Origin: a virus
Taxonomy: Duplodnaviria; Caudoviricetes
Virus record (IMG/VR): IMGVR_UViG_3300006620_000007
Strand: one strand, 5' to 3'
DNA length: 64,000 bases
Shown: positions 34,013 to 62,412 of the stretch, in pieces
Numbering within the stretch: the stretch's first letter is position 1
How the letters are laid out: every line of letters starts with the position of its first letter
Notes under the pieces: model-generated
The model's input: only the letters and a program-made list of their open reading frames with translations
What the model was told of the DNA's origin: nothing
Databases searched by the model: none
Program-made: the position numbers and the translations under genes

Positions 34013-37000
34013 TTATCCTATTACCACTGCCATTTTAATAGCAATTTCTTCTGCGTCTTGTGCGGACACAGCACCTGAACTACCTGCAACTGAAACCCAC
34101 TGACCTGCTTGGTCATAAATTTCAACCCTGTCATCCTGTGTATTAAAACGCATCATTCCTGTTTCTGGTGTTGGGTGTCTATTTGACAAATTACCAGTTG
34201 GAATAACAAATCCTCCAGTTCCTTCAATTTTGAAGTAACCAGTACCAGTTTGAGCAAGAGTAGTAACTGCGCCTGCTACAGTATTAGTTATCGAATTTTG
34301 ATTGAATCCAAAATTTTCTACAATAACTTTACCAGTTCCGTTCGCCAAAAGGTTCAAATCAGCGTTTGTAGTAATGGTTCTTACTGTATTTCCTTCGATT
34401 TCAATGTCATCGACTAATATTTTATTTACATTAAACCTTGTTGTGTTTGCATCAGCAATCTGTGTTCCTTGTGCGTAAAAACGTATAGTATCATCATCTG
34501 CACCTGGTGTTGCTTCTGCTGTAATATATGTATCTTGGTCAATATCACGCACACCATTTAATGTGATCCACTGTCCGTCATAACCTTCAAACACATCTGT
34601 GTCTGTGTTATAACGTATCATACCATTTACTGCTGTACCTGGACGTTGTGCTGTTGTACCTTTTGGTATTGTTAATGAACCTGTTGAATTAATCTCAACT
34701 GTTTCACTGCCTGGATCAAGAACAATGTCGCCTGGTGCTGAAATAATGTTTGCTTTGAAACTTAAATCATCAACAACAATACTTCCTGTTCCACTTGCAC
34801 GTAATTCTAAGTCTTGGTTTGTGTTAGTTGTTTGAATAACATTAGTATTAATGTTAATATCATCAATCTGTGCCTCACCTGTGTAAACTTTTTTCCATTC
34901 GTGTGTTGAAATACCTAAGTCAAATGTTCCGTCTTGGCTTGGTACAAGGTTACTTGCAATACCTGCAACAATTTGTATGCTATCACTTGCTTCGTCACCA
35001 ATGGTAATGTTACCACCTATTGTAACATCTCCTGTTACATCTAAGTTTCCTGTGATGTTTACGTTGTCTGCAAAGTTAATAATACCGTCAGCACTGTCAA
35101 TGTTCAAGTTTCCACTTAAACTTTCTACAGTGTTGCCACTTAATCTTGTATTACCTGTTTGAATCTTGTCGCCGTCAATAATTGTTGTACTTGTGCCAGT
35201 GCTAAATCTAACACTTTGTAAAGTATCAACGTTAAAATTTGCGTTAGTAAAAGTAACAGTACCAGTTGCTTGGTCAACATGGAATACATCTCCAACTCTA
35301 AAGTCACCTTTATGGTCAACTGAACTAAAATAAATGTTTGCGTCATTTAATTTTGTAACTTCTTGACTTTGTATAACTGTTGTTGAGTCGTTATCAACTG
35401 CTTTACCGTTACCAATGTATGCAAGGTTCTGAGAGATAAGGTACATAACAACGCCGTTACCGTCGCCGTATATTCCATAGTTACCATAAACACATGCACT
35501 ACCAATTGATCTAATCTCACAACCAAAATCTGAAAAGTCAACAAGTTCCATTCCAGTTGCATAAGCACCTCCGCCAAAGCCGATTGTCTGATCTAAAATA
35601 GTTTCATCAATCAGTGTTGTTGAAGTATCTGTACCGTTAAATCTTAATAATAATTTTGTGTTGTTATCATTTGAAACTTCGTTCAATGGTGGTGTATATG
35701 AACCTGTTGTGTATCTTGCAGTGTCTGAAATTCTAAAATCATCTACATAACCGTTGAAAGCATTTGAAGCATCGTACACTGCACCAATGATAAATGGTTT
35801 ACTTGTTCCAAGTGTGCTACTAAATGAGTTATCACTATCAACTCTTGAACCGTTAACATATAAATTAATTGTATTGCCTGAACGTGATACTGCAATATGT
35901 GTCCAAGTTGTTGCTGATAATGATCCACCGGATAATAATTCTGCGCCGTTGTAGTAAACTTTTACTGTACCACCTACGTGATATACGTATAAGCCTGTGT
36001 CAGTTGCTGTACCGGCTCTCATATCAACCAATGACTGTGTACCTGTTACGTTGTTTCCATAGAACCAACCTTCAACAGTAAAGTCTGCTGTTCCTAAACC
36101 AAAGTCTGGATCATTTGCGATGCTGATATAGTCGCCAGTACCGTCAAGTTGTAAACTACCAGTGCCGAATTTTTTAATTGTTGTATCTACTTGTGCTTGT
36201 CCTGAAACAACTACTGTTTTTCCACCACGTTCAAATTTAGTTTCAAGTCCTACTGCGTTACCATTTAAGTAAATGTAGTTTCCATCTACTTCATTTACTA
36301 CTGCATTGATTACAGTTCCGCCTGCTTGTGTGTATTGAAACGTTTCAGTTGCTGTTGGTGTTCCGACAAGTCCGCTTAATTTAACTTTAGTACGTCCTGT
36401 ACCTTTTAATCCTGTAGTACCATTAACACCTTGTATTGCTTTGTCTGCAAAATATACAAAAGAGTTTAGCCATTCAACTCTTGCACCGTTGGTTGCGTAT
36501 AATCCAACTGATCCAGGTACAATAAATGTTACTGCGTGAAATAACATACTTGCTTCTCTTGATCCTGCTACAGCAACAGCACCATCTAAGTATGCACCAC
36601 GTCCTGCATCTCCTTGATCAAAGCCTCTTGGATCACTTGCACTTGTTACACTACCTTTTGTAATTACAGTTACGTTTTTAATGTAAGGTGATCTTGCAGT
36701 AACATTGAAGTTACTTGCAAATTTAAAAGCATATCCATTGTCGTTAATGCTATCATAGTAAAAATCTTTGATTGACAAGTTCATAATGCTTGTGTCACCT
36801 TGCAATACAAAACAGTCATTGTTGTTTGTTCCTGCTGTAGGTGTAATGTTTACTGATCTAATACCTTCGCCTAAGATTGCAACACCTGCTGGTACTGTTA
36901 AAGGAAATACTTCTTCATAATCACCTGGGTAAATGTGAATAGTGTCTCCTGCTGTTGCAGAAGTTAATGCTTTTGTAATAGTTGTGTATGGTGCTTGTGG

Positions 37001-37723
37001 ATGATCTCCAGCATTTGTATCATTACCATTCTTAGCAACATAGTAAATGTTGCCTGGAGTTGCTGTTAAGTCCAAGTCTGACAGTGTAATACTGTTTGCA
37101 ACAACTGTTGTTGCTGTTACATCATCAAAGTAACCATGATTCCACTTTTTAGTTGCGTCACCAATGGTATATATGTTTGTTGCATCTGGTATTAAGTTGC
37201 TGGCAATGTCTGCGTTTATTGTAATACTGTCTGTATCATCATCACCAATAGTAATATCACCGTCTGCACTGATGTTACCAGTTGCATGTAAGTTACCAGT
37301 AACGTTTGTATTACCTACAAAGTTAATAGTACCTGTTCCGTTAGGACGAAATTCTAAGTTTTGGTTAGTTCCTAATGTGCGAATTACACTACCGTCTATT
37401 TCAATATCGTCGATTTGTAATCTATCTTGGTAAATTACACTGTTTGGTGTTGCAATATTGAACTGACTTGCTGTAGTGGAGATAGTGTTGTTACTACCGT
37501 TGATTGTTATGTTACCAATCGGTAATGTAGTGTCTAAAATATCTAATGATTGTATTCTTGCTGAACCGTTTATATCGAGCTCGGCTGTAGGCGTCGATGT
37601 CTTAATACCTATACGGCTATTATTAACATCCAGATAAAGTAGGTCTGTTTCAAATGCTAAATCCACTCCTTGACGAAGCAAATTTGCCTTTAAAAGCGGA
37701 CCAGATATACGACCAACTGCCAC
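34013..37723 (-). CDS. Large fibre-like protein with LamG/ConA-like lectin domain, 1236 aa (GTG start)
   Basis: LamG-like block at about 35635-36215 (KFGTGSL..DG.GDY, DFTVEGW, WTHIAVSR, LYVNG, GYVDDFRIS..ARYT); C-terminal IP.G....RP...G..R.NT motifs; SD AGGAG. Confidence 0.75.
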   Translation of the reverse strand: MAVGRISGPLLKANLLRQGVDLAFETDLLYLDVNNSRIGIKTSTPTAELDINGSARIQSLDILDTTLPIGNITINGSNNTISTTASQFNIATPNSVIYQDRLQIDDIEIDGSVIRTLGTNQNLEFRPNGTGTINFVGNTNVTGNLHATGNISADGDITIGDDDTDSITINADIASNLIPDATNIYTIGDATKKWNHGYFDDVTATTVVANSITLSDLDLTATPGNIYYVAKNGNDTNAGDHPQAPYTTITKALTSATAGDTIHIYPGDYEEVFPLTVPAGVAILGEGIRSVNITPTAGTNNNDCFVLQGDTSIMNLSIKDFYYDSINDNGYAFKFASNFNVTARSPYIKNVTVITKGSVTSASDPRGFDQGDAGRGAYLDGAVAVAGSREASMLFHAVTFIVPGSVGLYATNGARVEWLNSFVYFADKAIQGVNGTTGLKGTGRTKVKLSGLVGTPTATETFQYTQAGGTVINAVVNEVDGNYIYLNGNAVGLETKFERGGKTVVVSGQAQVDTTIKKFGTGSLQLDGTGDYISIANDPDFGLGTADFTVEGWFYGNNVTGTQSLVDMRAGTATDTGLYVYHVGGTVKVYYNGAELLSGGSLSATTWTHIAVSRSGNTINLYVNGSRVDSDNSFSSTLGTSKPFIIGAVYDASNAFNGYVDDFRISDTARYTTGSYTPPLNEVSNDNNTKLLLRFNGTDTSTTLIDETILDQTIGFGGGAYATGMELVDFSDFGCEIRSIGSACVYGNYGIYGDGNGVVMYLISQNLAYIGNGKAVDNDSTTVIQSQEVTKLNDANIYFSSVDHKGDFRVGDVFHVDQATGTVTFTNANFNVDTLQSVRFSTGTSTTIIDGDKIQTGNTRLSGNTVESLSGNLNIDSADGIINFADNVNITGNLDVTGDVTIGGNITIGDEASDSIQIVAGIASNLVPSQDGTFDLGISTHEWKKVYTGEAQIDDININTNVIQTTNTNQDLELRASGTGSIVVDDLSFKANIISAPGDIVLDPGSETVEINSTGSLTIPKGTTAQRPGTAVNGMIRYNTDTDVFEGYDGQWITLNGVRDIDQDTYITAEATPGADDDTIRFYAQGTQIADANTTRFNVNKILVDDIEIEGNTVRTITTNADLNLLANGTGKVIVENFGFNQNSITNTVAGAVTTLAQTGTGYFKIEGTGGFVIPTGNLSNRHPTPETGMMRFNTQDDRVEIYDQAGQWVSVAGSSGAVSAQDAEEIAIKMAVVIG

Positions 37724-37845
37724 CTTTTTCTCCTATAAACGGGGATCCTGTCCCTCTAACCTGTTAGACAATAAATTGCCTCTATCGCTGGTTAACCACG
37801 GTTTGTCCTGCAAATGACTTGGCCAGCCCTTCAATGCATTAATAG
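37724..37845 (-). promoter_or_regulatory. Structured ~115-nt 5' leader between a late promoter and the 1236-aa fibre gene
   Basis: TAAATA at 37846-37851; GC-richer spacer with hairpins AGGCAAT-TT-ATTGTCT, TAACC/GGTTA and GGGA-CAGGA-TCCC just before the SD. Confidence 0.45.
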
Positions 37846-37864
37846 TATTTATCGTTTTTGGATA

Positions 37865-45597: not shown

Positions 45598-46704
45598 TTA
45601 TTTTAATCCTGCAAGTCTTCTAATATCTACGACATTATCTGTTGCAGAATTACTTGCGCCATTTCTAACGTTAGATTCTTCTTTATTGCCTGTTACTTCT
45701 TTTGCCTCGGTAAGTGTCGCCTTCTTCTTCTCTGGAGTGTTACCATCTATAACGGACGGTAAGTACTTGTCAAACTGTTTTTGGATATTAGCAGTTTGTA
45801 CAGACTCCAGCAAGTCTGACATAATTTCTTTCTGTTCCTTGCTCAATGGAGCAGTTAACTCGGAAATTACTTCTTTTCTCTTTGCAGTATCTTGTGCTTT
45901 TTTGAACTCAAGATCCTTAGACTCAACTAATTTAGTTGTTTTCTCAACAGTTGCTTTCGCTTCTGCTAATTGCTTGTCTTTCACCTCTACAACTTTTAAA
46001 AGTTTAGCAGTTTCTGATTTCTCATTCAAGTAAGAATTTGTATATTCTTCCGCAAACGTTTCAAACAGTTTTCTACCAAAGTCGTTTTTACGTGCAACGT
46101 CGATGTCTTCTTTAAGTTGCCCAATCTCTTTTGTAAGAGTTTTTGCAACTGTGTTTTCAACAACCTTCGCGCCATTTTTAACGAATTTTTCTTTTACAGT
46201 ATCAAGATGCTTCTTAGCCTCTCTAATTAGTCGAACTTTAGTTTCTGCAAGATCCTTTTTGTCTTCGTGGAACTCTGCAATTTCTTTTGCCAAAGCCTCT
46301 ACCACAAATTCCTCAAGTTTGCCAAATTTAGTTGACATTGCTTTTTGGTCTTCGTGTAACTCTGAAACTTCCTTGCCTAATTGTGCAACAACAAAGTTTT
46401 TAAGTAGGTCTGCGTTTTCACGCATTGCTACATGATACTTTGCTCTTGCTTCAGCAAGTTTTGTGCGGTCATCAGCAAATTCCGTAATCTCTGCACTAAG
46501 TCTATCCTCAACCATTTTTTCCACTGCTTCAGCCATTACTGACTTATCGTGGTCATATTTTTGAGCAAATTCTTCGCGAAGTTCTGCGGTTACTTCCTGA
46601 CGGTTCTCTGTAATCTTAGCCGCCCATGCTTCTTCAATAGATGCTTTGATGTCTTCCGAAATTACGTTATTCTCAAAAAGTGATTTCAGTGCTTCCAACA
46701 TCAT
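45598..46704 (-). CDS. gp22: Prohead core scaffolding protein, gp22-like
   Basis: Coiled-coil, Glu/Lys-rich, between protease and capsid genes; ends IRRLAGL. Confidence 0.75.
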   Translation of the reverse strand: MMLEALKSLFENNVISEDIKASIEEAWAAKITENRQEVTAELREEFAQKYDHDKSVMAEAVEKMVEDRLSAEITEFADDRTKLAEARAKYHVAMRENADLLKNFVVAQLGKEVSELHEDQKAMSTKFGKLEEFVVEALAKEIAEFHEDKKDLAETKVRLIREAKKHLDTVKEKFVKNGAKVVENTVAKTLTKEIGQLKEDIDVARKNDFGRKLFETFAEEYTNSYLNEKSETAKLLKVVEVKDKQLAEAKATVEKTTKLVESKDLEFKKAQDTAKRKEVISELTAPLSKEQKEIMSDLLESVQTANIQKQFDKYLPSVIDGNTPEKKKATLTEAKEVTGNKEESNVRNGASNSATDNVVDIRRLAGLK

Positions 46705-46711
46705 GTTCTCC

Positions 46712-47332
46712 TTATTTTAAACCTTGGATAATGTTAACCAAAGATTCTTTCAAATACTTCTGTGCCTTTGTGTCTTCTTTTACTTCGCGAGCCATATTAA
46801 ATGCCTTATACCCACCTGTGGTATTCATCAAGTGCTCGTATATTGGAGTTGGATATGCTCCTGGAGCCGATGGTTGAGCAACTATATCAACTGTGATAAT
46901 CTCAAAGTCGCTTACGTTACTGTCTTCGTTTACGTTACCTGAACCACGCGATGAAACACCAAGTTTAACTCCGCTTTCCAGCATTGTTTTAACAAGTTGT
47001 CCCATCGGCGTAGGTAATACTTTTAACTTTCCATAACCGTTTGGTCCATCCATCCACATTTCTTTAATCATGTGCGAACAACGGTCAAGGTTAATGTTAA
47101 GGCCTTCTGGATGATCAACTTCACCAAGAACTGAATATCCTCCTTGAATCTGATCGTTAAGAGTATTGACAGCCCTACTAATTTCACTTACGGGGTATAT
47201 ACGTTGGTTCGCATTGCGAACGCCACCCTGTATACAAATACCTTTTAAATGAAGGTCTTTGCCGTCCTCAGTAGATTCCAGAACGATCTGCGCCTGGTCG
47301 AATGTCAAGTTCTCACGTAATAAGTTCATCAA
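46712..47332 (-). CDS. gp21: Prohead protease, gp21-like
   Basis: LKGICIQ...RN.N.R.YP, LGE.DHP, LGVSSRG.G, DIVA.PSAP.AYP. Confidence 0.92.
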   Translation of the reverse strand: MMNLLRENLTFDQAQIVLESTEDGKDLHLKGICIQGGVRNANQRIYPVSEISRAVNTLNDQIQGGYSVLGEVDHPEGLNINLDRCSHMIKEMWMDGPNGYGKLKVLPTPMGQLVKTMLESGVKLGVSSRGSGNVNEDSNVSDFEIITVDIVAQPSAPGAYPTPIYEHLMNTTGGYKAFNMAREVKEDTKAQKYLKESLVNIIQGLK

Positions 47333-54530: not shown

Positions 54531-57227
54531 TTACGCTGTTGGTTGTTGTTGGAATCTTTGATCGGGTCTTTTAGAAGCCGCTGATTTTCCAGGTGCCGCT
54601 GGTTTTCCACCTGCTGGTGCTTTTGCTTTACCGCCACCTTCAATATATGCTATTGCAAGATCAACTTGATTTGCATCAAAAATTTGTCTAACTAATTCTT
54701 CTATCTTAGGATTACCAAGTTTTGCCGCAGTACCTTTGTCTGCAACTTTGCCTGTAGATTTGCTAATCCACTGAGCACCTTTCCATTCATAGTCGTCTTT
54801 AGTTGCACCTGCGTTTGTACCCTTCGGTGGACTTGACTTCATGTCAAACGGTCCATCGTTAAATGGATCTCCGGAAGACTTACCTTGTAATGTTGAAGCA
54901 CTATCGCCGTCTGCTTTGCCGTCACCATCTTTATCTGCTTTAGGATCTGGACTTGATGCTGAAGCACCTGCTCCACCACCTGCTCCTGTGGCACCACCTG
55001 CGCCTGCGGTACCACCGCCTACGCCTCCTGTTTTTGCTCCTGCATTTTTGCCAGGTGCTGGTGCTTTTTTATTATTACCTTTAGTACCGCCGCCAACGCC
55101 GCCTGAACTTGCTGTGCTTTTTTCTGCACCTTGTACTTTAAGATCTGCTTGTCCTGTGTTAGTTGCAACAGTTCCAATTTGTTCGTCACTCATACCTCTG
55201 TTTGAAAGTATTTGTGCAATGGATCCTACGTCTGTTGGTTCACCTGCTTTTTTCCAATCTTTTTCAAGTTTAGCGTATGTAACTTTTTGTCCTAATTCTT
55301 TACCTGCTTTTGCCGCACCTGATTTAACTGCACCAACTGCCTTGCCAATTCCCTTGTTAGCCGCCGCTCCTACTTTGTCCATACCAGCACCTGCAACTTT
55401 ACCTGCGCCTTTTGCCGCCGCCTTAGTAATGTTGGCCGCACCTGCCGCGGCTTTCTTAGCCATGCCTTTGATGTCTATTTCGTCTACTCTATAGTCTTCA
55501 AATAAATCAAAGTATTCATCTTCTAATTGTTCTGCTGTTTTATAAACTCTTGATTCTTTTTTCTCAGTTGGCTCTTTGAATTCTGATTTTGCTAATGCTC
55601 CACCAAGTGCAACTGCCGCCGCGGCTTGTGCAATTTGCGCCGCTGTGTTGTCAACTGCTTGTTCCATTGATCCTGAAACTGTGCCTTTGAACACTTGATC
55701 ATATAACTCGTCTCTTAGATCATCTGGTAAATTTTCTAAAGCCTTGTCTAAATTATCTGTAAATGCATTAGGTTGTACAAAAACACTTTTCATTTGGAAA
55801 ACAGGATTTCCGTCTGCATCTACACCTTCAATTTCTGAGTCAACGATAGCAGTGTATTCAGTTCCGTCTGGTAATGTTTTACTGACTGTTGATTTGAATG
55901 TCTCTCCAACTGTTATTTCTTCTGGTACACCTTCAACACTGATACTGTCTCCAACTTCATACGCTGAAGAAGCCGATATACGTGTTCCCATGAATTCTTT
56001 TTGATCTAATGCTCTGTTAAATCCTTGTGCATTTTGTAATGCTTCAATATCTTCTTCTGACAAGCCAGCGTCTAATAATTTTTGTGTGTTATCTGTAATC
56101 CATGCGTTGTCTGGAAAGTCTGCTGAATTAATACCTGCGTCATTAAGTTGTTCTGCATCAAGTTTAGCAACAACTTCTGTGTCTGATTGATATGAATCTG
56201 CATCTTGAGTTGACGTTGATGTAGTTTTTTCTATGTCAACATCTGTGCCTTTGATGTCAAATTCACCTTGCATTTTATCAATAGCCTGATTTAAGTTTCC
56301 TCCATCTTCTCCTGCAAGAGCAAATATTTTGTCGTCAACTTCTTTCATTTGACCTTGTAAAATTTCCTGTGCTTCTGCATCAAGATCGCCTCTGCCTAAT
56401 AGTTCTGCCATTGCACTTCTTGTTTGTATAAGTTCTTTAGCCGCATCAGCATCTAAATCAGTTAGGCTTGTAGCGTCCATTCCGTCTAATTGTGTGACAT
56501 CAATTTCGCCTGATGCATCGTTAATAAATGTGCTTGTAATTTCTGGAGGTAATATTTCTCCAATGGCATCGCCAATGGCACCAGCAACTGCACCAAGTGC
56601 CGCGCCTTTAACAGATTTAGCCGCCGCTGTTGAAAGTTTATCACCTTTAATAGTATTGTTTGCTAACTTTAAGAAGAAACCAATTGCGGCACCACTTAAA
56701 ATACCACCACTTGCAAATGCAAGTACTGATGTCATTGCACCAATAATAAATGCACTCTTGGCTGGATTGTCTTTTGCAAAACCTCCCCACTTTTCAACTC
56801 CTGCAAGAATTTTTTGTCCTGCTGGATTTCCTTGTAGTTTAGTTTTTAGTTGTGATTTTAATTTTTCAAACTGTGCATCAAAGTTCTTAACAGGTCCGCT
56901 ATTTGCCGCGGCATCCATTAACTTATCAATTTCTGCTTTCATCTTGCCTGAGACTTCAGCAGTAACTTTACCTGCCTTGCCTAAGGCAGTCATATTCTCT
57001 CCGCCTTCTATTGATACCTTTTCAGCATCTTGGAAAATCTTTTTAATTTGATCTGGTTTAAGATCGGCTTCCATTAATTTGCTATACTGCTCAACTAATG
57101 GCCAAACATTCTTTTCCCATGAACCTACATAAATTCTTTGTTGCTCAGTTAACATTTCCCATGATTGAGATTCTGTTAATATTGCTTCTGACTTAAGATT
57201 GTATGCTGTTACTTCTTGTAGTTTCAT
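54531..57227 (-). CDS. Large hypothetical, probable internal head/ejection protein
   Basis: N-terminal ILTE/MLTE/LMEA possible prohead-protease sites; Gly-zipper hydrophobic helices; low-complexity C-terminus. Confidence 0.5.
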   Translation of the reverse strand: MKLQEVTAYNLKSEAILTESQSWEMLTEQQRIYVGSWEKNVWPLVEQYSKLMEADLKPDQIKKIFQDAEKVSIEGGENMTALGKAGKVTAEVSGKMKAEIDKLMDAAANSGPVKNFDAQFEKLKSQLKTKLQGNPAGQKILAGVEKWGGFAKDNPAKSAFIIGAMTSVLAFASGGILSGAAIGFFLKLANNTIKGDKLSTAAAKSVKGAALGAVAGAIGDAIGEILPPEITSTFINDASGEIDVTQLDGMDATSLTDLDADAAKELIQTRSAMAELLGRGDLDAEAQEILQGQMKEVDDKIFALAGEDGGNLNQAIDKMQGEFDIKGTDVDIEKTTSTSTQDADSYQSDTEVVAKLDAEQLNDAGINSADFPDNAWITDNTQKLLDAGLSEEDIEALQNAQGFNRALDQKEFMGTRISASSAYEVGDSISVEGVPEEITVGETFKSTVSKTLPDGTEYTAIVDSEIEGVDADGNPVFQMKSVFVQPNAFTDNLDKALENLPDDLRDELYDQVFKGTVSGSMEQAVDNTAAQIAQAAAAVALGGALAKSEFKEPTEKKESRVYKTAEQLEDEYFDLFEDYRVDEIDIKGMAKKAAAGAANITKAAAKGAGKVAGAGMDKVGAAANKGIGKAVGAVKSGAAKAGKELGQKVTYAKLEKDWKKAGEPTDVGSIAQILSNRGMSDEQIGTVATNTGQADLKVQGAEKSTASSGGVGGGTKGNNKKAPAPGKNAGAKTGGVGGGTAGAGGATGAGGGAGASASSPDPKADKDGDGKADGDSASTLQGKSSGDPFNDGPFDMKSSPPKGTNAGATKDDYEWKGAQWISKSTGKVADKGTAAKLGNPKIEELVRQIFDANQVDLAIAYIEGGGKAKAPAGGKPAAPGKSAASKRPDQRFQQQPTA

Positions 57228-57231
57228 AGTA

Positions 57232-58245
57232 TTACTCGGCTCCCTGTACTGCTGGTGCTTTAGCCGGTTTGTCCGGAGTACCAGTTGGATAACTTGTTTT
57301 AGTACCTTGTTGTTTTTGTGCCGCCTTTGATGTTACTGTTTTAGTTACCGGTGCAGGTTGTTTCTGCGGAGTTTCTGCTCCTGTTGGTGCTGGTGCTGGT
57401 TTCTTTTCTGGTGCTGGTGCTGGTTGCTTACCTGGCACTTCTGCACTTGGTTTAGGTGCTGGTGGTTTAGTACCTTTCTTCAACAAAGCCACTGCTTGTG
57501 CTTTTTCGCCTTTGGTTGCTTGATCTATTTGTTTTTGAATGTCTGCATTTAATTCGCCAGTTCCTTTACCTTGTTGATCTCCCTTACCTTGTTGGTTTGC
57601 TTTTCCTTGCTGTTGCCCTTGCTGTTGTGCTTTAGCATCTTTTGGTTGTTCTGCTCCATCTTGTGGAGCCGCTTTTTTTGAATCTTGTACTATTTGTAGT
57701 AATGCTTTATCAAGCACTTTCTTACCAAATGGACCGCCGTCGTATTTTTTCCCGCCGGCAGTTTTGATACCTTTTTTCTTAGCCAATGCTATAATTTCTT
57801 GTTTGCCTTTTTCATCTTTTGCATCAATCACGGTAGGATTGCCATCAATACCTGCTATAACATCTTTTCCTGATTTACTTTTAACAACATCGCCTGGTGC
57901 AACTGCACCTGTTCCGGCTCCTGACGCATCAGCGATTGCTTTATCAATTATTTTACCTTTGCCTTCGAAACCGTTATTAAGTAACCAATTTTTAAATTCT
58001 GCTGGATCGTTAGCACTCATGCTACCGCCAATGCTACCTTGGTGTGCTTGCCAATTCTTACGCAATTCGTTTGCTTCAGCACCCGTGTCTACGTTGCCTG
58101 CAACGCCTGCCGCAAAATTACTTGCACCCACTTTAGCGGCTGTTTTAGCAAGAACCTTTTTTCCATACTGCTTTAAGGCGTTAACAGGCGCCTCGGAAAC
58201 AGGTTTTTTAGTGGATTCAGCAATAATCTGCGTTACTTTCATCAA
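57232..58245 (-). CDS. Hypothetical, probable internal head protein
   Basis: MKVTQIIAE...VSE-AP N-terminus; Lys/Pro/Gln-rich tail; TAAATA at 58270-58275. Confidence 0.5.
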   Translation of the reverse strand: MMKVTQIIAESTKKPVSEAPVNALKQYGKKVLAKTAAKVGASNFAAGVAGNVDTGAEANELRKNWQAHQGSIGGSMSANDPAEFKNWLLNNGFEGKGKIIDKAIADASGAGTGAVAPGDVVKSKSGKDVIAGIDGNPTVIDAKDEKGKQEIIALAKKKGIKTAGGKKYDGGPFGKKVLDKALLQIVQDSKKAAPQDGAEQPKDAKAQQQGQQQGKANQQGKGDQQGKGTGELNADIQKQIDQATKGEKAQAVALLKKGTKPPAPKPSAEVPGKQPAPAPEKKPAPAPTGAETPQKQPAPVTKTVTSKAAQKQQGTKTSYPTGTPDKPAKAPAVQGAE

Positions 58246-58306: not shown

Positions 58307-58489
58307 ATGGCAGATACAAATTATGTTGTTGTTCCCAAGAATGCGATTATCTCAGCACTTTCGCAGAATGATGCATTCATGACTGTGGAACAATTAAAAG
58401 AAGTCCGACCAGATGAAGAATATGTTATACTTGAAGTACATCCGGAACGACCAAGTGGATTAGGACGTGATCCTGATCTATACGATTAG
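58307..58489 (+). CDS. Small hypothetical protein, 60 aa
   Basis: MADTNYVVV...GLGRDPDLYD; TAAATA at 58293-58298; the upstream part of track ORF 57764..58489 is an antisense shadow. Confidence 0.55.
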   Translation: MADTNYVVVPKNAIISALSQNDAFMTVEQLKEVRPDEEYVILEVHPERPSGLGRDPDLYD

Positions 58490-58526
58490 AACTGTTTGAA
58501 TATCAAAACATACTAAATTGTTATAA

Positions 58527-58608
58527 GTTGCTCTTTGAGCAACTATGTTTTCGCTTACGCTCAAACATTATATCTTTTAATTAATGATATAATAATTGCG
58601 AAGCAATT
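58527..58608. other. Cluster of DNA mini-hairpins (possible origin or packaging signal)
   Basis: AGTTGCTC-TTT-GAGCAACT; on - strand ATGTTT-GA-GCGTAAGC-GA-AAACAT; AATTGC-GAA-GCAATT (GCGAAGC core); AT-rich spacer. Confidence 0.4.
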
Positions 58609-58609
58609 T

Positions 58610-58985
58610 AGCATCATGTAGATTGTTTCAGTCAGACGGAACCTACTCGCTGGTTCCATCTAATCTTGAACATCATGTGAGCTCGTCACAGCCAAGACTG
58701 GAAGTAGGTGTTTGTTTATACACAAAGTTCAATGGGCTCTGACCTTTCCCAACCTACGTCGACATCGCTAACGCTACCTCCCGCTTCGTTCCTATTGCTA
58801 AGGAGTTTTTATGAACTGTGTTTGTGTTCTTCGACTGACAGCATTCAATCTACGTCAACCTGTGGTCCCAATTCTTTTGATGGATTCCTCACAATGGTGG
58901 TCGATCAACGTGTACGAGTGTCCTTACTACGGGACTTTTTGCTCGGCGGTATTATAAACTGGCCCGCTAACCTTATGTGCTGTTT
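58610..58985 (-). ncRNA. Candidate large structured ncRNA (~375 nt) directly downstream of the GIY-YIG-like gene
   Basis: Raised GC, no credible ORF; long-range stems 58618-58625/58846-58853 and 58628-58633/58833-58838; hairpin 58634-58661; further nested stems. Strand inferred from context. Confidence 0.5.
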
Positions 58986-58990
58986 ATAGC

Positions 58991-59413
58991 CTATAGTTTG
59001 TTAAGTGCTTCTCTGAGAATTTTTGAACCGCCAACTCTAACATTAATAATTCCGTTGTAATAATCGTCACTCTCTAACACACGGCGTTCAAATTGTTCTC
59101 TTGCCTCAAGGTAACTCATCAAGCCTCTACTATTACAATAATAAAGTATCTCTCTTGAAAAGTTTTCCGTGCCTAATGCTTGTACGTCTTCGTTGAGTTT
59201 GTCTGAACTTCCCCAGTAGTCACGCCAATCTGACTCTTTGTGTCCTCTGCGTTTGTTCTTCCTGCCTTTGAGTGGTGGTTTTGTGGTCTTAAATTTTGCT
59301 AACTTCTTGCCTATGTACTTTTTGTTGTTAGTAAGATTTGTGATTATGTACACAAACCCTTCTATATCGTCTGGGATTTCTTTTACTTCTTTACCTTTAT
59401 AAGTCCACTGCAT
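58991..59413 (-). CDS. Small GIY-YIG-like endonuclease
   Basis: GFVYIITN..N.KKYIGKK, ESDW..YWGSS, F.REIL, E...QF...VL..D.YYN. Confidence 0.75.
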   Translation of the reverse strand: MQWTYKGKEVKEIPDDIEGFVYIITNLTNNKKYIGKKLAKFKTTKPPLKGRKNKRRGHKESDWRDYWGSSDKLNEDVQALGTENFSREILYYCNSRGLMSYLEAREQFERRVLESDDYYNGIINVRVGGSKILREALNKL

Positions 59414-59427
59414 GAACTTACTTACGT

Positions 59428-59637
59428 TTAAGATTTTTTCCGAGCCTCTTTTTTGGCATCAAACTCTGATTTAATCTCATCCATACGTATTTTAGCCAGT
59501 GTGCGTATCTCTCTGAGCCATTTTCGGCTTGATTGCATGGTGCGTTCACCGCCATGCTTCTCAAAAAGTGCAACTTCCTTGAAATACTCCAAATATGCTT
59601 TGGTTAGTTTATCGTGTGTATCGTCGTTTATGCTCAT
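59428..59637 (-). CDS. Small hypothetical protein
   Basis: 69-aa helical ORF overlapping the gp46 stop (ATGA). Confidence 0.6.
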   Translation of the reverse strand: MSINDDTHDKLTKAYLEYFKEVALFEKHGGERTMQSSRKWLREIRTLAKIRMDEIKSEFDAKKEARKKS

Positions 59638-61406
59638 TGTACAATATCAATGTCGTTTGCGTAACTTGTAAATCCGTTTTCTTTTACAACCTTAAGTACG
59701 TTCTGCACACGACCTTGTAATTCGTCTTTGTGCGATATTAGATAGATGTTCTTTTTACGCTCTCTACCCATTTTCTTAAGTATTGCAAGACTTTGTTCAA
59801 CACCAGCAGTATCCATACCGCTGTCAATCAATTCATCAATGAACATCAAGTTAATATTTTGATATAAACTTTCCCATACATCACGGAAAGCAAAACTCAT
59901 ACCAAGTATAAGTCTATTACGTTCACCTCTACTCAAGTTGTCAAAGTCTAAGTCCTGTCCAAGTTGTGTAATTAGTACACTTAAATCGTTTTGGAATACA
60001 ACACTGTGCGGCAATCCAATCTTATCTAAGTAATTTGTTAGTCTGTTGTTTAGATATGCAAGATTCTGTTCAATAATTTTCTTACGAATAAAACTATCTT
60101 TGTTTGTTAATAGTTTGTATAAGAAATCTTGATGTTCTTTCATAGAACTTAAATCATTTACTGAACCCCAATCAACTTCTTGTATAGCACTATTCTTTAA
60201 TTCTTCAATTTGATCAATGTAAGGATCTGATTCTGTTTCTTTTGATTTAAGAGTCTGTTTTAGATTATCAACATTACTTCTGTGTTCATATGCTTCTTTT
60301 GCAGTTTCATAAAATGTATTTGGCTTTGCACTTTCCTCACCTAATTCAGAAAGTTTAGTCTGTACCTTTTGAAACTTCGTATCAATTTCCATTAAGTAAG
60401 ACATAGTGTCAGCATATTCTTCTTCTAATTTCTTTTGTATGTCGTCAATTTTTTCTTCTGGCAAGTCTTGTCCACAAGCATGACACTTTGCTTCATCAAG
60501 ATGTTCAAGTTCACCACTTATCTTTGCAACCTGTCTATCTGTTTGTGCTAATGCACTTTCAAGAGTTGCCTTTTCCTTGGTTAAGTTTCTTCTTGAAGCA
60601 TCAATCTCTTCCCACTTAGAAAGTAATTCGTGATTAGCAAGTTCTTGTTCAATGTCTAAGTGTTCTAATTCATCAATGCCTGTTTGTAAACGATCGCAGT
60701 CTTTTGCGTTTTGTGTTTTCCAAGCATTGCTTTTAATTTGTAAACTATTAATAGTTTCGCCTATCTTATCATTGCTTGATTGTATAGCATTAATACGTGC
60801 AGTTTCTTCCGTGATAGCATCACGTACTTCTTTTTGTTTGCCTTTTAGTTCTTCCGCTTTCTCGGAAAGTATAGTAATACCAAGTAACTGTTCAATAATA
60901 GCACGTTGGTCATTTGCTTTTAGACTTAGGAATGGTTCTGTGTAAGTGTTTAATGCAACCAAGTGCTTAAACATCTCATGACTCATTTGTAATAGTTCGC
61001 CAATAGTTTCTTGTGTCTTACGACTATCTCCTTGAGACTCATCAGTCATTTCTTGTTCTTGTTCGTCAATAAAAAACTTCAACAAGTTAGGACCACGTCC
61101 TCTTTCAATTCTATAATTTACTCCTGCTTTTTCAAAGTTAAGAGTAACCAACATACCTTTGCCGTTAGTTTTGTTAATAAGGTTGTTGCGTTTAATGTTT
61201 GTTAGTGCCACACCATATAACGCATAACTCAATGCGTTAATGATTGTGGTCTTACCTGTACCGTTACGTGACCCACTGTCGTCACCACCTTGATCTAAGT
61301 TTTCTCCAAGAACTAAGGTTAATTGTTTATTATTAAAGTTAACTGCTTGAGTCTGATTACCCACACTCATAAAGTTCTTAACTGTTAGGTCTTTGATTAC
61401 TATCAT
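59634..61406 (-). CDS. gp46: Recombination endonuclease ATPase subunit, gp46/SbcC/Rad50-like
   Basis: KNFMSVGN, Walker A NGTGKTT, zinc hook CHACGQ, signature LSRGE, Walker B FIDELIDSGMD, ISH. Confidence 0.93.
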   Translation of the reverse strand: MIVIKDLTVKNFMSVGNQTQAVNFNNKQLTLVLGENLDQGGDDSGSRNGTGKTTIINALSYALYGVALTNIKRNNLINKTNGKGMLVTLNFEKAGVNYRIERGRGPNLLKFFIDEQEQEMTDESQGDSRKTQETIGELLQMSHEMFKHLVALNTYTEPFLSLKANDQRAIIEQLLGITILSEKAEELKGKQKEVRDAITEETARINAIQSSNDKIGETINSLQIKSNAWKTQNAKDCDRLQTGIDELEHLDIEQELANHELLSKWEEIDASRRNLTKEKATLESALAQTDRQVAKISGELEHLDEAKCHACGQDLPEEKIDDIQKKLEEEYADTMSYLMEIDTKFQKVQTKLSELGEESAKPNTFYETAKEAYEHRSNVDNLKQTLKSKETESDPYIDQIEELKNSAIQEVDWGSVNDLSSMKEHQDFLYKLLTNKDSFIRKKIIEQNLAYLNNRLTNYLDKIGLPHSVVFQNDLSVLITQLGQDLDFDNLSRGERNRLILGMSFAFRDVWESLYQNINLMFIDELIDSGMDTAGVEQSLAILKKMGRERKKNIYLISHKDELQGRVQNVLKVVKENGFTSYANDIDIVQ

Positions 61407-61407
61407 T

Positions 61408-62412
61408 CTATAACTCGTTGTAAATGTTTAATAACGTTTGCTTATTATAGTTGTCTGAATCAATAGCATTAATTTCTTCTGCAACAATTTGATCTACACT
61501 TTCAAACTTTGTAATATCAATATCGCTGTTTATTTCGTCATCTTGTTGACTTGGAATTAATGTAAGTTCTCTACAACTGTAGTTTCTCATAAATTCTTCT
61601 TTAATAAAACTTGCTTCTTCATAACTAATTGGAATGTCAAGTGTAACTCTAAGATACATCTTACTTTTTAATAGTGTATCTTTTTGATCAATTAGTTGAC
61701 TCAGTTTCACTGTTCTATACTTAGGACAATCTTCCCAGTCAAGATACTGTGGCTCTCCGCCATGTTCTAATATCATCATACCACGTTTATCATCCCATGC
61801 ATCTGCATAGTTGTGTGGAAATGCATTTCCGATATATGTTACATTACCTTGTGTTTGTCTTTTATGAAAGTGTCCACTAAACACATAATCTTGATGTACA
61901 AAATGTTTAGATTGTAATTCTCCTGTGTCTGGCATTTGTACCATTGCATTCATATAGAAATTAGGAAGTTCAAAATGACCAAACATATACTTACTTGTAA
62001 TCTTAGGAATCTTTTTCCATTCTTCTCCAACAAGCCACGGAACCATTGTGCTGTCTTCGATTGTTGTAATTTCATCAATTACAGTTACACCGTCGATGTG
62101 TTTTGCAAATTCTACACTCTGGATATCTCTTTTGTCTTTGTAATATAGATCATGGTTACCAGGAAAGTAAAAGAACTGTTCAAATGCTTTACCAAGTTTT
62201 TCAAGACAACGGATTGAATAATCCATTGTAACAATGTTTAGACTATTTCTATTGTGATGCCAGTCACCCATGAAGATTCCTGTTTCACAACCATTTTCTT
62301 TTGCCTTGGCAATATACCAATCTACAAAATCTTCACAGTCTTGATTATGGGCCACTGAATTGGACTTTAGTCCAAAGTGGATATCCGTGAATACTGCACA
62401 TTTTTTAAACAA
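61408..62412 (-). CDS. gp47: Recombination endonuclease nuclease subunit, gp47/SbcD/Mre11-like (TTG start)
   Basis: DIHFG, GDWHH, GNHD, GHFE, SGHFH metallophosphoesterase motifs. Confidence 0.93.
   Translation of the reverse strand: MFKKCAVFTDIHFGLKSNSVAHNQDCEDFVDWYIAKAKENGCETGIFMGDWHHNRNSLNIVTMDYSIRCLEKLGKAFEQFFYFPGNHDLYYKDKRDIQSVEFAKHIDGVTVIDEITTIEDSTMVPWLVGEEWKKIPKITSKYMFGHFELPNFYMNAMVQMPDTGELQSKHFVHQDYVFSGHFHKRQTQGNVTYIGNAFPHNYADAWDDKRGMMILEHGGEPQYLDWEDCPKYRTVKLSQLIDQKDTLLKSKMYLRVTLDIPISYEEASFIKEEFMRNYSCRELTLIPSQQDDEINSDIDITKFESVDQIVAEEINAIDSDNYNKQTLLNIYNEL

What the first reader, a model, noticed from the sequence alone, without database searches (positions are those of the whole stretch)
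58610..59424. Minimal GIY-YIG nuclease gene followed immediately by a ~375-nt highly structured element
Seen: the largest non-coding gap in the window begins at the nuclease stop. On the - strand: GTAGATTG..TCAGTC pairs about 200 nt away with GACTGA..CAATCTAC; inside are GTAGGT/ACCTAC, AGTCTTG/CAAGATT, GTGA/TCAC, a 10-bp hairpin AGATGGAACC/GGTTCCGTCT and a possible pseudoknot AGTTCA/TGAACT; ACATGATG occurs twice. The 140-aa protein lacks the C-terminal DNA-binding domains of typical homing GIY-YIG enzymes but has a very basic insert (KPPLKGRKNKRRGHK). Inference: a ribonucleoprotein in which the RNA supplies specificity or scaffolding, linked to the gp46/gp47 recombination operon; alternatively a ribozyme or structured DNA origin. 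This is my best candidate for an undescribed system, but function is unproven.
Basis: partly seen in the sequence, partly recalled or inferred. Interest (0 to 1): 0.78.

Follow-up and report, generated by a model that had tools for sequence, protein, structure and literature searches.

The report
Twin-box RNA behind a phage nuclease
The gene-free stretch after a small DNA-cutting enzyme gene of this uncultured T4-like aquatic phage encodes a real, uncatalogued folded RNA of about 370 bases. The RNA carries the same 7-letter word twice, the two copies always mutate together, and it always sits behind a small nuclease gene, but nothing shows that it guides that enzyme.

Summary
A 140-aa GIY-YIG-only nuclease gene (58991-59413, minus strand) is followed at once by a conserved, pseudoknotted non-coding RNA (about 58975-58610, minus strand).

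No Rfam family matches it, no cultured phage record carries it, and four literature searches found no description. The scan has met this RNA family several times before on other genomes. Those notes reached a similar verdict, and I re-tested their main claims here.

- **Three RNA types.** The family has three sequence types (A, which is this window, plus B and C). All share a 3' module of word, hairpin, same word, with about 23 word variants. The first 7 letters of the two copies matched in 129 of the 131 type-A loci scored.
- **Always a nuclease upstream.** I retrieved loci by RNA sequence alone. A small nuclease gene lies directly upstream in all 312 genuine RNA loci with enough upstream sequence: 306 GIY-YIG and 6 an unrelated PD-(D/E)XK nuclease in the same slot. 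Homology resumes exactly at the nuclease stop codon.
- **The nuclease does not need the RNA.** Close GIY-YIG homologues (Melnitz, 75% identity) and distant ones (cyanophages, phiM12) have no such RNA. The GIY-YIG tree does not follow RNA type.
- **No partner found.** Six searches for a sequence complementary to the word all failed.

Best reading (0.45): an autonomous, co-transcribed RNA that acts through its twin words, next to an interchangeable nuclease. An RNA-guided nuclease is not excluded (about 0.13).

The parts
58991..59413 (-). 140-aa stand-alone GIY-YIG nuclease gene (SegE type) with no DNA-binding domain
   Evidence: - Pfam PF19835, E 6.8e-36; PHROG 447.
- Catalytic Tyr, Tyr, Arg, Glu and Asn are invariant in 7 homologues.
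- Low amino-acid entropy with high third-codon-position entropy over 88 distinct genes indicates purifying selection.
58610..58975 (-). Core of the structured RNA (366 nt, type A). It starts at the ancestral stop codon TAA of the nuclease gene and ends just after the second word.
   Evidence: - Conserved directly 3' of the ORF in most of 80 related loci, at 70-99% nucleotide identity.
- No conserved sense ORF.
- Covariation measured on 73 sequences.
- No Rfam match.
58852..58967 (-). Variable 5' domain made of stems S1 to S6. It is absent or replaced in short forms of the RNA.
   Evidence: - S1 is 100% paired and S3 99%.
- S2 has changes on both sides in 4 of 4 pairs, and S4 in 4 of 9.
- Short forms lack this domain.
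58812..58817 (-). 5' strand of the pseudoknot (AGTTCA). It pairs with 58726-58731 (TGAACT), which lies in the internal loop of helix H_F.
   Evidence: - 95% standard pairs, and 5 of 6 pairs change on both sides.
- In short forms it is replaced by an 8-bp pair, UAUGCUAC with GUAGCAUA.
58778..58805 (-). Helix H_D (CTCC/GGAG), closing a 20-nt loop that holds the conserved GGAACGAAG (58784-58792)
   Evidence: 91% paired, with 3 of 4 pairs changing on both sides. Loop conservation is shown.
58757..58765 (-). Invariant single-stranded block ATGTCGACG, which contains the palindrome GTCGAC
   Evidence: Invariant in 83 sequences. It was used as the retrieval pattern.
58704..58757 (-). Helix H_F (GTAGGT/ACCTAC plus TGGG/CCCA) with the conserved loop AAAGGTCAGAG (58737-58747)
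   Evidence: - 99-100% paired and almost invariant.
- One pair varies as UA 63 against GC 7.
- The loop could also pair with TCTGAC at about 58630-58640. This was not tested by covariation.
58662..58699 (-). Helix H_H (AGTCTTG/CAAGATT), enclosing the weak hairpin H_I and word copy 1
   Evidence: H_H is 87% paired, with 2 of 7 pairs changing on both sides. H_I is 81% paired with no covariation.
58671..58678 (-). Twin word, copy 1 (ACATGATG)
   Evidence: The first 7 letters equal copy 2 in 129 of 131 loci, over 10 variants in type A. About 23 variants occur over types A, B and C.
58634..58661 (-). 10-bp hairpin H_G (AGATGGAACC/GGTTCCGTCT), lying between the two words
   Evidence: 98% paired in type A. 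In type B it is replaced by a different, fully complementary stem.
58612..58619 (-). Twin word, copy 2 (ACATGATG). Its first two letters close helix H_A (58846-58853 with 58618-58625).
58594..58609 (-). Small variable hairpin after copy 2 (AAATTGC-TTC-GCAATT)
   Evidence: The stem sequence changes on both sides among relatives.
58526..58566 (-). Conserved downstream pair of hairpins: GTTTGAGCGTAAGCGAAAAC (tandem G-A pairs, GNRA loop) followed by a terminator-like stem
   Evidence: A recognisable version follows RNA types A, B and C. The terminator-like stem was found by the scan.
59428..62412 (-). Upstream context on the same strand: gp47-like (61408-62412), gp46-like SbcC/Rad50 (59634-61406) and a 69-aa ORF (59428-59637)
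   Evidence: Pfam matches. The same gene order appears in most related loci.

Best explanation
The stretch is the gene of an autonomous structured RNA of a new family.

**Transcription (inferred).** The RNA is read through from the gp47-gp46-orf69-nuclease operon. No promoter-like site and no extra sequence constraint lies in front of it.

**Fold (shown).**
- A variable 5' domain.
- A conserved core held by at least one pseudoknot.
- A 3' module in which the same 7-8-letter word, of general form NNNU(G/A)AN, appears twice. Each copy follows a helix end, and a stable hairpin lies between them.

**The twin words (shown).** They are the one feature shared by all three sequence types, and they change in concert.

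**How it most likely works (inferred).** Both words pair with the same complementary word on a partner that lies outside the RNA and its neighbourhood. The partner could be two copies of one molecule or two sites on one molecule. The RNA would then bind, hold or bridge that partner.

**The gene in front.** It is an interchangeable small nuclease, either GIY-YIG or PD-(D/E)XK. It shares the transcript and perhaps the pathway (recombination or branch cutting next to gp46/gp47), or it is a homing-type gene that lodges beside a conserved RNA gene. The RNA does not programme it.
For: **The RNA is real.**
- Conserved 3' of the ORF in most of 80 loci.
- No sense ORF.
- Covariation in S2, S4, the pseudoknot, H_D and H_H on 73 sequences.
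- H_G is fully compensated in type B.
- G-U pairs fit the minus strand only.

**The family is new.**
- No Rfam hit at gathering score, nor at E up to 10.
- No match in 50,697 phage records for types A, B or C.
- Nothing in four literature searches (one search had the widest terms).

**Twin words.**
- 129 of 131 loci have identical first 7 letters.
- Types B and C have their own variants, also twinned.

**The partner is not local.**
- No column of the RNA is complementary to the variable word positions.
- The RNA's own complementary word is not enriched in 736 kb of flanks.

**Co-transcription.**
- The RNA starts at the stop codon.
- Third-codon-position entropy stays high, at 1.35-1.40, at the ORF's 3' end.
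- No promoter-like site between the gene and the RNA.

**The nuclease is interchangeable and independent.**
- PD-(D/E)XK (PF24608) fills the slot in 6 type-B loci, with homology resuming at the stop codon.
- RNA-less GIY-YIG homologues exist.
- The GIY-YIG tree does not follow RNA types A and B.
Against: - The RNA was never found without a nuclease gene directly upstream (0 of 312). That is more than plain synteny or a sporadic selfish gene would predict.
- The pair stays together in a rearranged context (type C). Both facts fit a functional pair.
- No partner for the words was found anywhere, so pairing in trans is an inference from concerted change only.
- Transcription, RNA ends and abundance were not observed.
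- Retrieval by exact patterns is biased towards conserved members.
Confidence: 0.45

Rival explanations
1. Nuclease-RNA particle. The RNA recruits a domain-only nuclease, with either fold accepted. Its two identical words act as short twin guides that read the same word on two DNA or RNA strands, for instance the two strands of an inverted repeat. A nuclease with one active site could then cut both strands.
For: - A small nuclease gene lies directly upstream in all 312 genuine RNA loci.
- Both nucleases are bare catalytic domains without a DNA-binding domain.
- The pair is kept in a rearranged context.
- The GIY-YIG protein is under purifying selection rather than decaying like a spent selfish gene.
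- The twin words behave like sequences that pair with something.
Against: - Two unrelated folds would both have to bind the same RNA.
- GIY-YIG at 75% identity lives without the RNA in Melnitz, as do distant homologues.
- The basic insert is not specific to RNA-linked members.
- Protein and RNA type do not co-diversify.
- ORFs or 1.1 kb can separate the two.
- No complementary word or inverted repeat was found in the window or flanks.
- Seven letters is very short for a guide.
Confidence: 0.13
2. Homing cassette beside a conserved RNA gene. The small nucleases are free-standing homing endonucleases that cut the conserved RNA gene, or its edge, in phages lacking them and are copied in beside it, as T4 SegB does in the tRNA cluster. 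The link would then be due to gene drive, and the RNA's own job would be unrelated.
For: - Two unrelated nuclease families occupy exactly the same slot, with the break in homology at the ORF borders.
- The GIY-YIG gene sits at other places in other phages: after nrdB in Melnitz and near endolysin genes in S-SRM01 and phiM12.
- The GIY-YIG tree is incongruent with RNA types A and B.
- SegB among T4 tRNA genes is an established precedent (my own knowledge: Brok-Volchanskaya et al. 2008; not read here).
Against: - No nuclease-free allele was seen in 312 RNA loci, whereas homing genes are usually sporadic.
- The GIY-YIG protein is more conserved (75-97%) than gp46 (54-96%) in the same loci and shows purifying selection.
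- It lacks the DNA-binding domain that gives Seg enzymes their site preference.
Confidence: 0.2
3. Cis-acting 3' untranslated region. The RNA controls the stability, translation or toxicity of the upstream nuclease message, acting like an antidote or a 3'-end protector.
For: The RNA starts at the stop codon whichever nuclease is present. It is never found without a nuclease gene upstream.
Against: - The words do not covary with the start-codon context of the nuclease gene or with any site in the ORF.
- Other ORFs can be inserted between the two.
- About 370-430 nt with pseudoknots and near-invariant 35-nt blocks is far more than such a role is known to need.
- RNA-less homologues manage without it.
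Confidence: 0.08
4. Self-processing RNA. The two identical words mark two equivalent cut or join sites, so that the roughly 59-nt segment between them is excised or circularised by the RNA itself or by a host enzyme.
For: - Identical words flank a hairpin module in all three types.
- Identity of two sites is what cutting at equivalent positions followed by rejoining would need.
- The core is complex and pseudoknotted.
Against: - No known ribozyme or intron model matches.
- No internal guide complementary to the words exists.
- The segment between the words carries the 3' strands of helices H_A and H_B, so excision would break the fold.
Confidence: 0.07
5. DNA-level element, such as a replication origin or a recombination hot spot on which the neighbouring nuclease acts.
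For: The position lies between the recombination genes gp46/gp47 and the structural genes. The sequence blocks are very highly conserved.
Against: Many G-U pairs are possible on the minus strand only, and compensatory changes keep RNA helices intact. Insertions are tolerated precisely in hairpin tips.
Confidence: 0.04

Closest known systems
GOLLD (RF01998) and ROOL (RF03087) large ornate RNAs
   Same: Large (hundreds of nt), multi-helix, pseudoknotted non-coding RNAs of unknown job, often carried by phages and found by comparative genomics. A conserved palindrome (GTCGAC) in a single-stranded joint could, as in such RNAs, serve self-association. That last point is untested here.
   Different: No sequence or model similarity. 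This RNA is shorter, has twin words that change in concert, and always follows a small nuclease gene rather than tRNA genes.
T4 SegB and other free-standing Seg GIY-YIG endonucleases beside stable RNA genes
   Same: A Seg-type GIY-YIG gene of a T4-like phage lies directly beside genes for structured RNAs. Different nuclease families can take the same slot in related phages.
   Different: The protein here is the catalytic domain alone (140 aa). It is present in every RNA locus seen and is under purifying selection. No nuclease-free allele was found.
omegaRNA/reRNA of IscB and TnpB (formerly HEARO) and IS110 bridge RNA
   Same: A structured RNA is encoded next to, and overlaps the end of, a small nuclease gene. 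Bridge RNAs use two short loops to read two DNA partners.
   Different: There is no RuvC, HNH or DEDD protein and there are no transposon ends. There is no variable 16-20-nt guide at the RNA's end. The two words are identical to each other, and the protein partner is swappable and dispensable.
Box C/D RNAs (C = RUGAUGA, D = CUGA)
   Same: The window's word ACAUGAUG and type C's CAUGAUGAC resemble a C box. CUGACUGA lies between the words in type A.
   Different: Most family members have AUGAAG, AUAAU or similar, lacking the G-A pairs a kink-turn needs. Type B has no CUGA. No Rfam C/D model matches.

Membership tests
GIY-YIG nuclease superfamily, SegE-type domain (PF19835) | Profile match above the curated cut-off | tested here: met
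   123.6 bits against a cut-off of 25, E 6.8e-36, profile positions 1-123 of 123
GIY-YIG nuclease superfamily, SegE-type domain (PF19835) | GIY and YIG tyrosines and the catalytic Arg, Glu and Asn | tested here: met
   Y22, Y33/G35, R55, E88 and N120 are invariant in 7 homologues at 40-81% identity
Seg-type homing endonuclease (full enzyme) | C-terminal DNA-binding domain joined to the catalytic domain | tested here: not met
   The protein ends 17 residues after the catalytic domain and no other Pfam domain matches. Homologues are 135-160 aa.
Seg-type homing endonuclease (full enzyme) | Sporadic presence or absence at a given site among close relatives | tested here: inconclusive
   No nuclease-free RNA locus in 312. 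However, another nuclease family takes the slot in 6 loci, and the gene sits at other sites in other phages.
Seg-type homing endonuclease (full enzyme) | Site-specific cutting of the nuclease-free allele | not testable with these tools
   Needs enzyme assays or mixed infections
Any Rfam 15 family, including group I/II introns, small ribozymes, GOLLD, ROOL, HEARO and C/D RNAs | Covariance-model match at or near the gathering score | tested here: not met
   No match in 58600-58990 at gathering score or at E up to 10 with lax filters
Group I intron carrying a GIY-YIG gene | Interrupted host gene, with exons on both sides that join into one reading frame | tested here: not met
   Only 14 nt separate the preceding ORF from the nuclease start. 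The downstream sequence is made of hairpins with covariation and indels, not an exon.
RNA-guided nuclease scaffold (omegaRNA, reRNA or crRNA type) | A variable guide segment adjoining a conserved scaffold, with a matching target | tested here: not met
   The sequence after the scaffold is a hairpin. The only variable single-stranded words are 7-8 nt, and no complement was found.
RNA-guided nuclease scaffold (omegaRNA, reRNA or crRNA type) | Protein and RNA depend on each other and co-diversify | tested here: not met
   RNA-less homologues exist. A PD-(D/E)XK nuclease sits with the same RNA type. The tree is incongruent with RNA type.
Type III toxin-antitoxin (ToxIN type) | Tandem RNA repeats upstream of an endoribonuclease toxin gene | tested here: not met
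   The RNA lies downstream. It has two 7-8-nt words about 59 nt apart, not tandem units. The protein is a GIY-YIG DNase-type domain.
T4 gene-60-type bypass cassette (matched take-off and landing codons beside a mobile nuclease) | An ORF entering the first repeat and continuing after the second | tested here: not met
   No conserved sense ORF crosses the region. The frames around both words are closed.

The most novel reading that the evidence does not exclude
The RNA is the specificity and assembly part of a new kind of nuclease particle. It presents two identical short guide words that read the same word on two strands or two molecules, and it can work with interchangeable bare nuclease domains (GIY-YIG or PD-(D/E)XK). 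The nuclease is always encoded directly in front of the RNA on the same transcript.
Probability: 0.13. Interest if true: 0.95.

Novelty: categorically new. Interest (0 to 1): 0.72.

Why it matters
- **Abundance.** This would add a common RNA to the short list of large structured RNAs with unknown jobs.
- **A handle on mechanism.** Most such RNAs offer no clue to how they work. Here, two copies of a short word change in concert over about 23 variants. That points to pairing with an unknown common partner and gives a simple test: mutate one copy, then both.
- **The nuclease link.** The strict position behind a small nuclease gene of either of two unrelated folds raises a testable question. Either phages have a nuclease system built around an RNA, or conserved RNA genes act as landing sites for competing selfish nucleases.
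- **Annotation.** In many phage records the protein family (PHROG 447) is labelled 'NAD synthetase'. It is a GIY-YIG nuclease domain.

Tried and rejected
1. **Known RNA family.** Rfam at gathering score and at E up to 10 gave nothing on the element. No tRNA or tmRNA was found.
2. **Thermodynamic test.** The z-score was -0.79, which is uninformative.
3. **Hidden coding region or decayed DNA-binding domain.** There is no conserved sense ORF, and indels are not in multiples of three.
4. **Group I intron.** No model match, no exons, and only 14 nt in front of the ORF.
5. **Words as antisense to the nuclease start site.** The start contexts do not covary with the word.
6. **A complementary word downstream of copy 2, giving a switch.** TTCAT occurs in 49% and ATCAT in 28% of ATGAA loci, against 27% and 36% of ATGAT loci. 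That is no usable association.
7. **A partner inside the RNA.** No column is complementary to the variable word positions. A first all-against-all column scan was too noisy to use.
8. **A partner in the flanks.** The RNA's own complementary word is not enriched over other variants in 736 kb.
9. **A partner at gene starts, or as an inverted repeat, in the window.** None was found.
10. **The word copies a gene's start site.** It equals the start region of the scaffold-like gene at 46704 in this lineage only. Relatives have AACAAGATG or similar, so this is coincidence.
11. **Word-to-word pairing through the palindrome CAUG.** Variants such as CAUA and CAGG would break it.
12. **Kink-turn or C/D box.** Most variants lack the needed G-A pairs.
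13. **The basic insert as an RNA-binding adaptation.** It is also present in RNA-less homologues.
14. **A promoter, or RNA structure, inside the ORF's 3' end.** There is no synonymous-site constraint there.
15. **The RNA in a cultured phage.** Types A, B and C have no match in 50,697 records. Melnitz has no match to my model of the RNA's 3' half.
Full report
**1. What is there**

The window is part of an uncultured T4-like myophage. Its nearest named relatives are the Methylophilales (OM43) phages of the Melnitz group, family Kyanoviridae.

On the minus strand the order is:
- a gp47-like phosphoesterase (61408-62412);
- a gp46-like SbcC/Rad50 ATPase (59634-61406);
- a 69-aa ORF (59428-59637);
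- a 140-aa ORF (58991-59413);
- about 460 nt without a sense ORF.

The 140-aa protein is a SegE-type GIY-YIG domain and nothing else (PF19835, E 6.8e-36, residues 3-123). It also matches PHROG 447.

**2. The element is a real RNA**

*Energy and database searches.* Folding energy alone says nothing (z -0.79). Rfam gives no match at the gathering score or at E up to 10.

*Conservation.* I fetched 80 loci from IMG/VR through the protein. Most of them carry the roughly 400 nt downstream of the stop codon at 70-99% nucleotide identity. There is no conserved sense ORF.

*Signs of RNA structure.* A first alignment showed three things:
- compensatory changes;
- a hairpin tip that accepts insertions of up to about 55 nt;
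- an ORF stop codon that lies in or just before the first stem.

*Pair counts on 73 distinct full-length sequences.*

| Helix | Standard pairs | Pairs changed on both sides |
|---|---|---|
| S2 | 84% | 4 of 4 |
| S4 | 94% | 4 of 9 |
| Pseudoknot AGTTCA/TGAACT | 95% | 5 of 6 |
| H_D | 91% | 3 of 4 |
| H_H | 87% | 2 of 7 |
| H_F1 / H_F2 | 100% / 99% | 0 of 6 / 1 of 4 |
| H_G | 98% | none in type A; fully compensated in type B |
| H_A | 84% | none |
| H_B | 69% | none |
| H_I | 81% | none |

*Strand.* Frequent G-U pairs in S4, H_G and H_H fit the minus strand only.

*The tool's own pair count.* On the 3' half it gave 91.8% paired cells, against 29-44% when partners are slid by one to three columns. 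Six pairs had changes on both sides, against 2.8 in shuffles.

*Extent.* In window coordinates the core runs from 58975 to 58610. A small hairpin (58609-58594) follows, then a conserved pair of hairpins (58566-58526).

**3. The twin words**

*In the window.* ACATGATG occurs at 58678-58671 and at 58619-58612. Each copy starts with the last two letters of a helix and continues as a single strand.

*Type A.* Across 131 loci the first seven letters of the two copies are the same in 129. Ten variants occur: ACATGAA, ACATGAT, ACATAAT, ACGTGAA, ACAGGAA, ACATAAA, GCATAAA, GCATGAA, GTATGAA and ACATGAG.

*Other types.* Divergent relatives that my model of the 3' half finds only weakly (type B) or not at all (type C) have the same layout of word, hairpin, U(G)UGRCU, same word. 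They carry further variants such as GAATAAT, AGATGAT, GGATGAA, TCGTGAT, TCTTGAT and ATATGAT.

*What varies.* The general form is NNNU(G/A)AN. The middle triplet is nearly always AUG, GUG, UUG or AUA. I have no tested explanation for that.

*What this implies.* Concerted change at six positions cannot come from pairing between the two copies. CAUG is a palindrome, but CAUA and CAGG are not. Gene conversion of a 7-nt tract whose flanks stay different is also implausible. A common partner is the simplest reading.

**4. Searches for the partner, all negative**

| Place searched | Result |
|---|---|
| Start-codon context of the nuclease gene | no covariation |
| Sequence downstream of copy 2 | no association |
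| Any column of the RNA alignment | none complementary |
| 736 kb of flanking DNA, own word against other variants | no enrichment |
| Gene starts and inverted repeats in the window | none |
| Wobble-tolerant pattern over the window, including its two other RNA genes | fewer hits than chance |

The word does equal the start region of the scaffold-like gene at 46704. Relatives show that this is a coincidence of the window's lineage.

**5. Link to the nuclease**

I retrieved loci by RNA sequence only, with three exact patterns, and counted the gene upstream.

| RNA type | Loci with enough upstream sequence | Gene directly upstream |
|---|---|---|
| A | 110 | GIY-YIG in all 110, ending 144-578 nt before the pattern |
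| B | 98 genuine | GIY-YIG in 92, PD-(D/E)XK in 6 |
| C | 104 genuine | GIY-YIG in all 104, one of them 1.1 kb away |

- Ten further type-B pattern matches and three type-C matches were chance hits in unrelated coding DNA.
- The PD-(D/E)XK gene encodes 168-173 aa (PF24608, E 1e-23 to 1e-27).
- Between PD-(D/E)XK loci and GIY-YIG loci, similarity stops in gp46 and resumes exactly at the nuclease stop codon.
- In type C loci the pair lies between a baseplate hub gene and an oppositely oriented gp46. The pair was therefore kept through a rearrangement.

**6. Evidence against a dedicated protein-RNA pair**

- Melnitz has a 75%-identical GIY-YIG gene after nrdB. It has no RNA behind it, and my model of the RNA's 3' half matches nowhere in its genome.
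- P-HM1, S-SRM01 and phiM12 have homologues at 40-56% identity followed directly by other genes.
- A quick tree of 73 GIY-YIG proteins is poorly resolved. It places type C proteins together (one gain; the grouping branch has 69% support). RNA types A and B are interleaved, needing at least 7 and 3 changes across well-supported branches.
- Unrelated ORFs of 87-92 aa, or 1.1 kb of DNA, lie between the gene and the RNA in some loci.

**7. The protein itself**

Over 88 distinct genes, amino-acid entropy is low and third-codon-position entropy is high. The gene is therefore kept by selection and is not decaying. Third positions are no more constrained at the 3' end, so no promoter or RNA stem is hidden inside the ORF.

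The catalytic residues are invariant. The protein is as conserved as, or more conserved than, gp46 in the same loci.

One inference I did not test: both GIY-YIG (as in Slx1) and PD-(D/E)XK enzymes include branch-cutting nucleases. A resolvase-like job beside gp46/gp47 would explain a replacement by an unrelated fold.

**8. Reading**

The RNA is an autonomous member of a new family. It is probably made by read-through from the nuclease gene, and its working parts are the twin words. The nuclease slot in front of it is filled by interchangeable small nucleases.

Three explanations for that link cannot be separated with sequence data:
- a shared pathway;
- a shared transcript;
- gene drive by homing nucleases.

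The guide-RNA reading has several observations against it, but the 312 of 312 link keeps it alive.

**9. Earlier notes of this scan**

Earlier notes describe the same family on other genomes with similar conclusions. I re-tested four points myself:
- that the RNA is real;
- that Rfam has no match;
- that the twin words change in concert;
- that there is no evidence of guiding.

**10. Limits**

- No expression data were available.
- Retrieval by exact patterns was capped at 120 rows and is biased towards conserved members.
- Alignments of the 5' domain are imperfect.
- I could build a model of only the 3' half.
- The tree is a quick one on a short protein.

Noticed in passing
window 58526-58566 (minus strand): A small conserved hairpin, GTTTGAGCGTAAGCGAAAAC (tandem G-A pairs, GNRA loop), followed by a terminator-like stem. 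It lies about 45-90 nt after the RNA core, behind an AT-rich spacer with a TATAAT-like hexamer. A recognisable version follows RNA types A, B and C. It may be a separate small RNA or the end of the same transcript.
   Followed up: partly
L215:5043-5549, L224:6671-7180, L267:3137-3658, L300:6572-7087: A 168-173-aa PD-(D/E)XK nuclease (PF24608) replaces the GIY-YIG gene directly upstream of type-B RNA. PHROG 244 labels it 'RusA-like resolvase'. In L300 a radical-SAM-like gene (7140-8072) is also inserted after gp46.
   Followed up: partly
window 58307-58489 (plus strand): A 60-aa ORF on the opposite strand lies between the RNA and the next minus-strand gene. It was found only in the window's close relatives, plus weak matches (36-53% identity) in three other loci. 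It has no family match.
   Followed up: no
L010:3419-3697 and L028:3422-3685: Two unrelated small ORFs (92 and 87 aa) are inserted between the GIY-YIG gene and the RNA in some lineages. Each overlaps the end of the nuclease gene.
   Followed up: no
phage records under, for example NC_015280.1 157848-158333: The minimal GIY-YIG family (PHROG 447) is present in 517 phage records, 339 of them Synechococcus phages. It is widely labelled 'NAD synthetase', which looks like an annotation error that has been copied.
   Followed up: partly
window 36785-37864: This is the largest stretch of the window (1080 nt) without an ATG ORF of 100 aa or more on either strand. Rfam at gathering score finds nothing there.
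   Followed up: no
window 54531-58245 (minus strand): Two low-complexity proteins rich in Ala, Gly, Lys and Gln (337 and 898 aa) follow the RNA. They have no Pfam or PHROG match, and homologues in related loci are only 30-80% identical.
   Followed up: no
window 46695-46712 (minus strand): In the window's lineage the scaffold-like gene between the head protease and the major head protein starts with AAGGAGAACATGATGTTG, which contains the twin word plus two more letters of copy 1. Relatives have AACAAGATG or AACCAGATG instead, so I take it as chance.
   Followed up: yes
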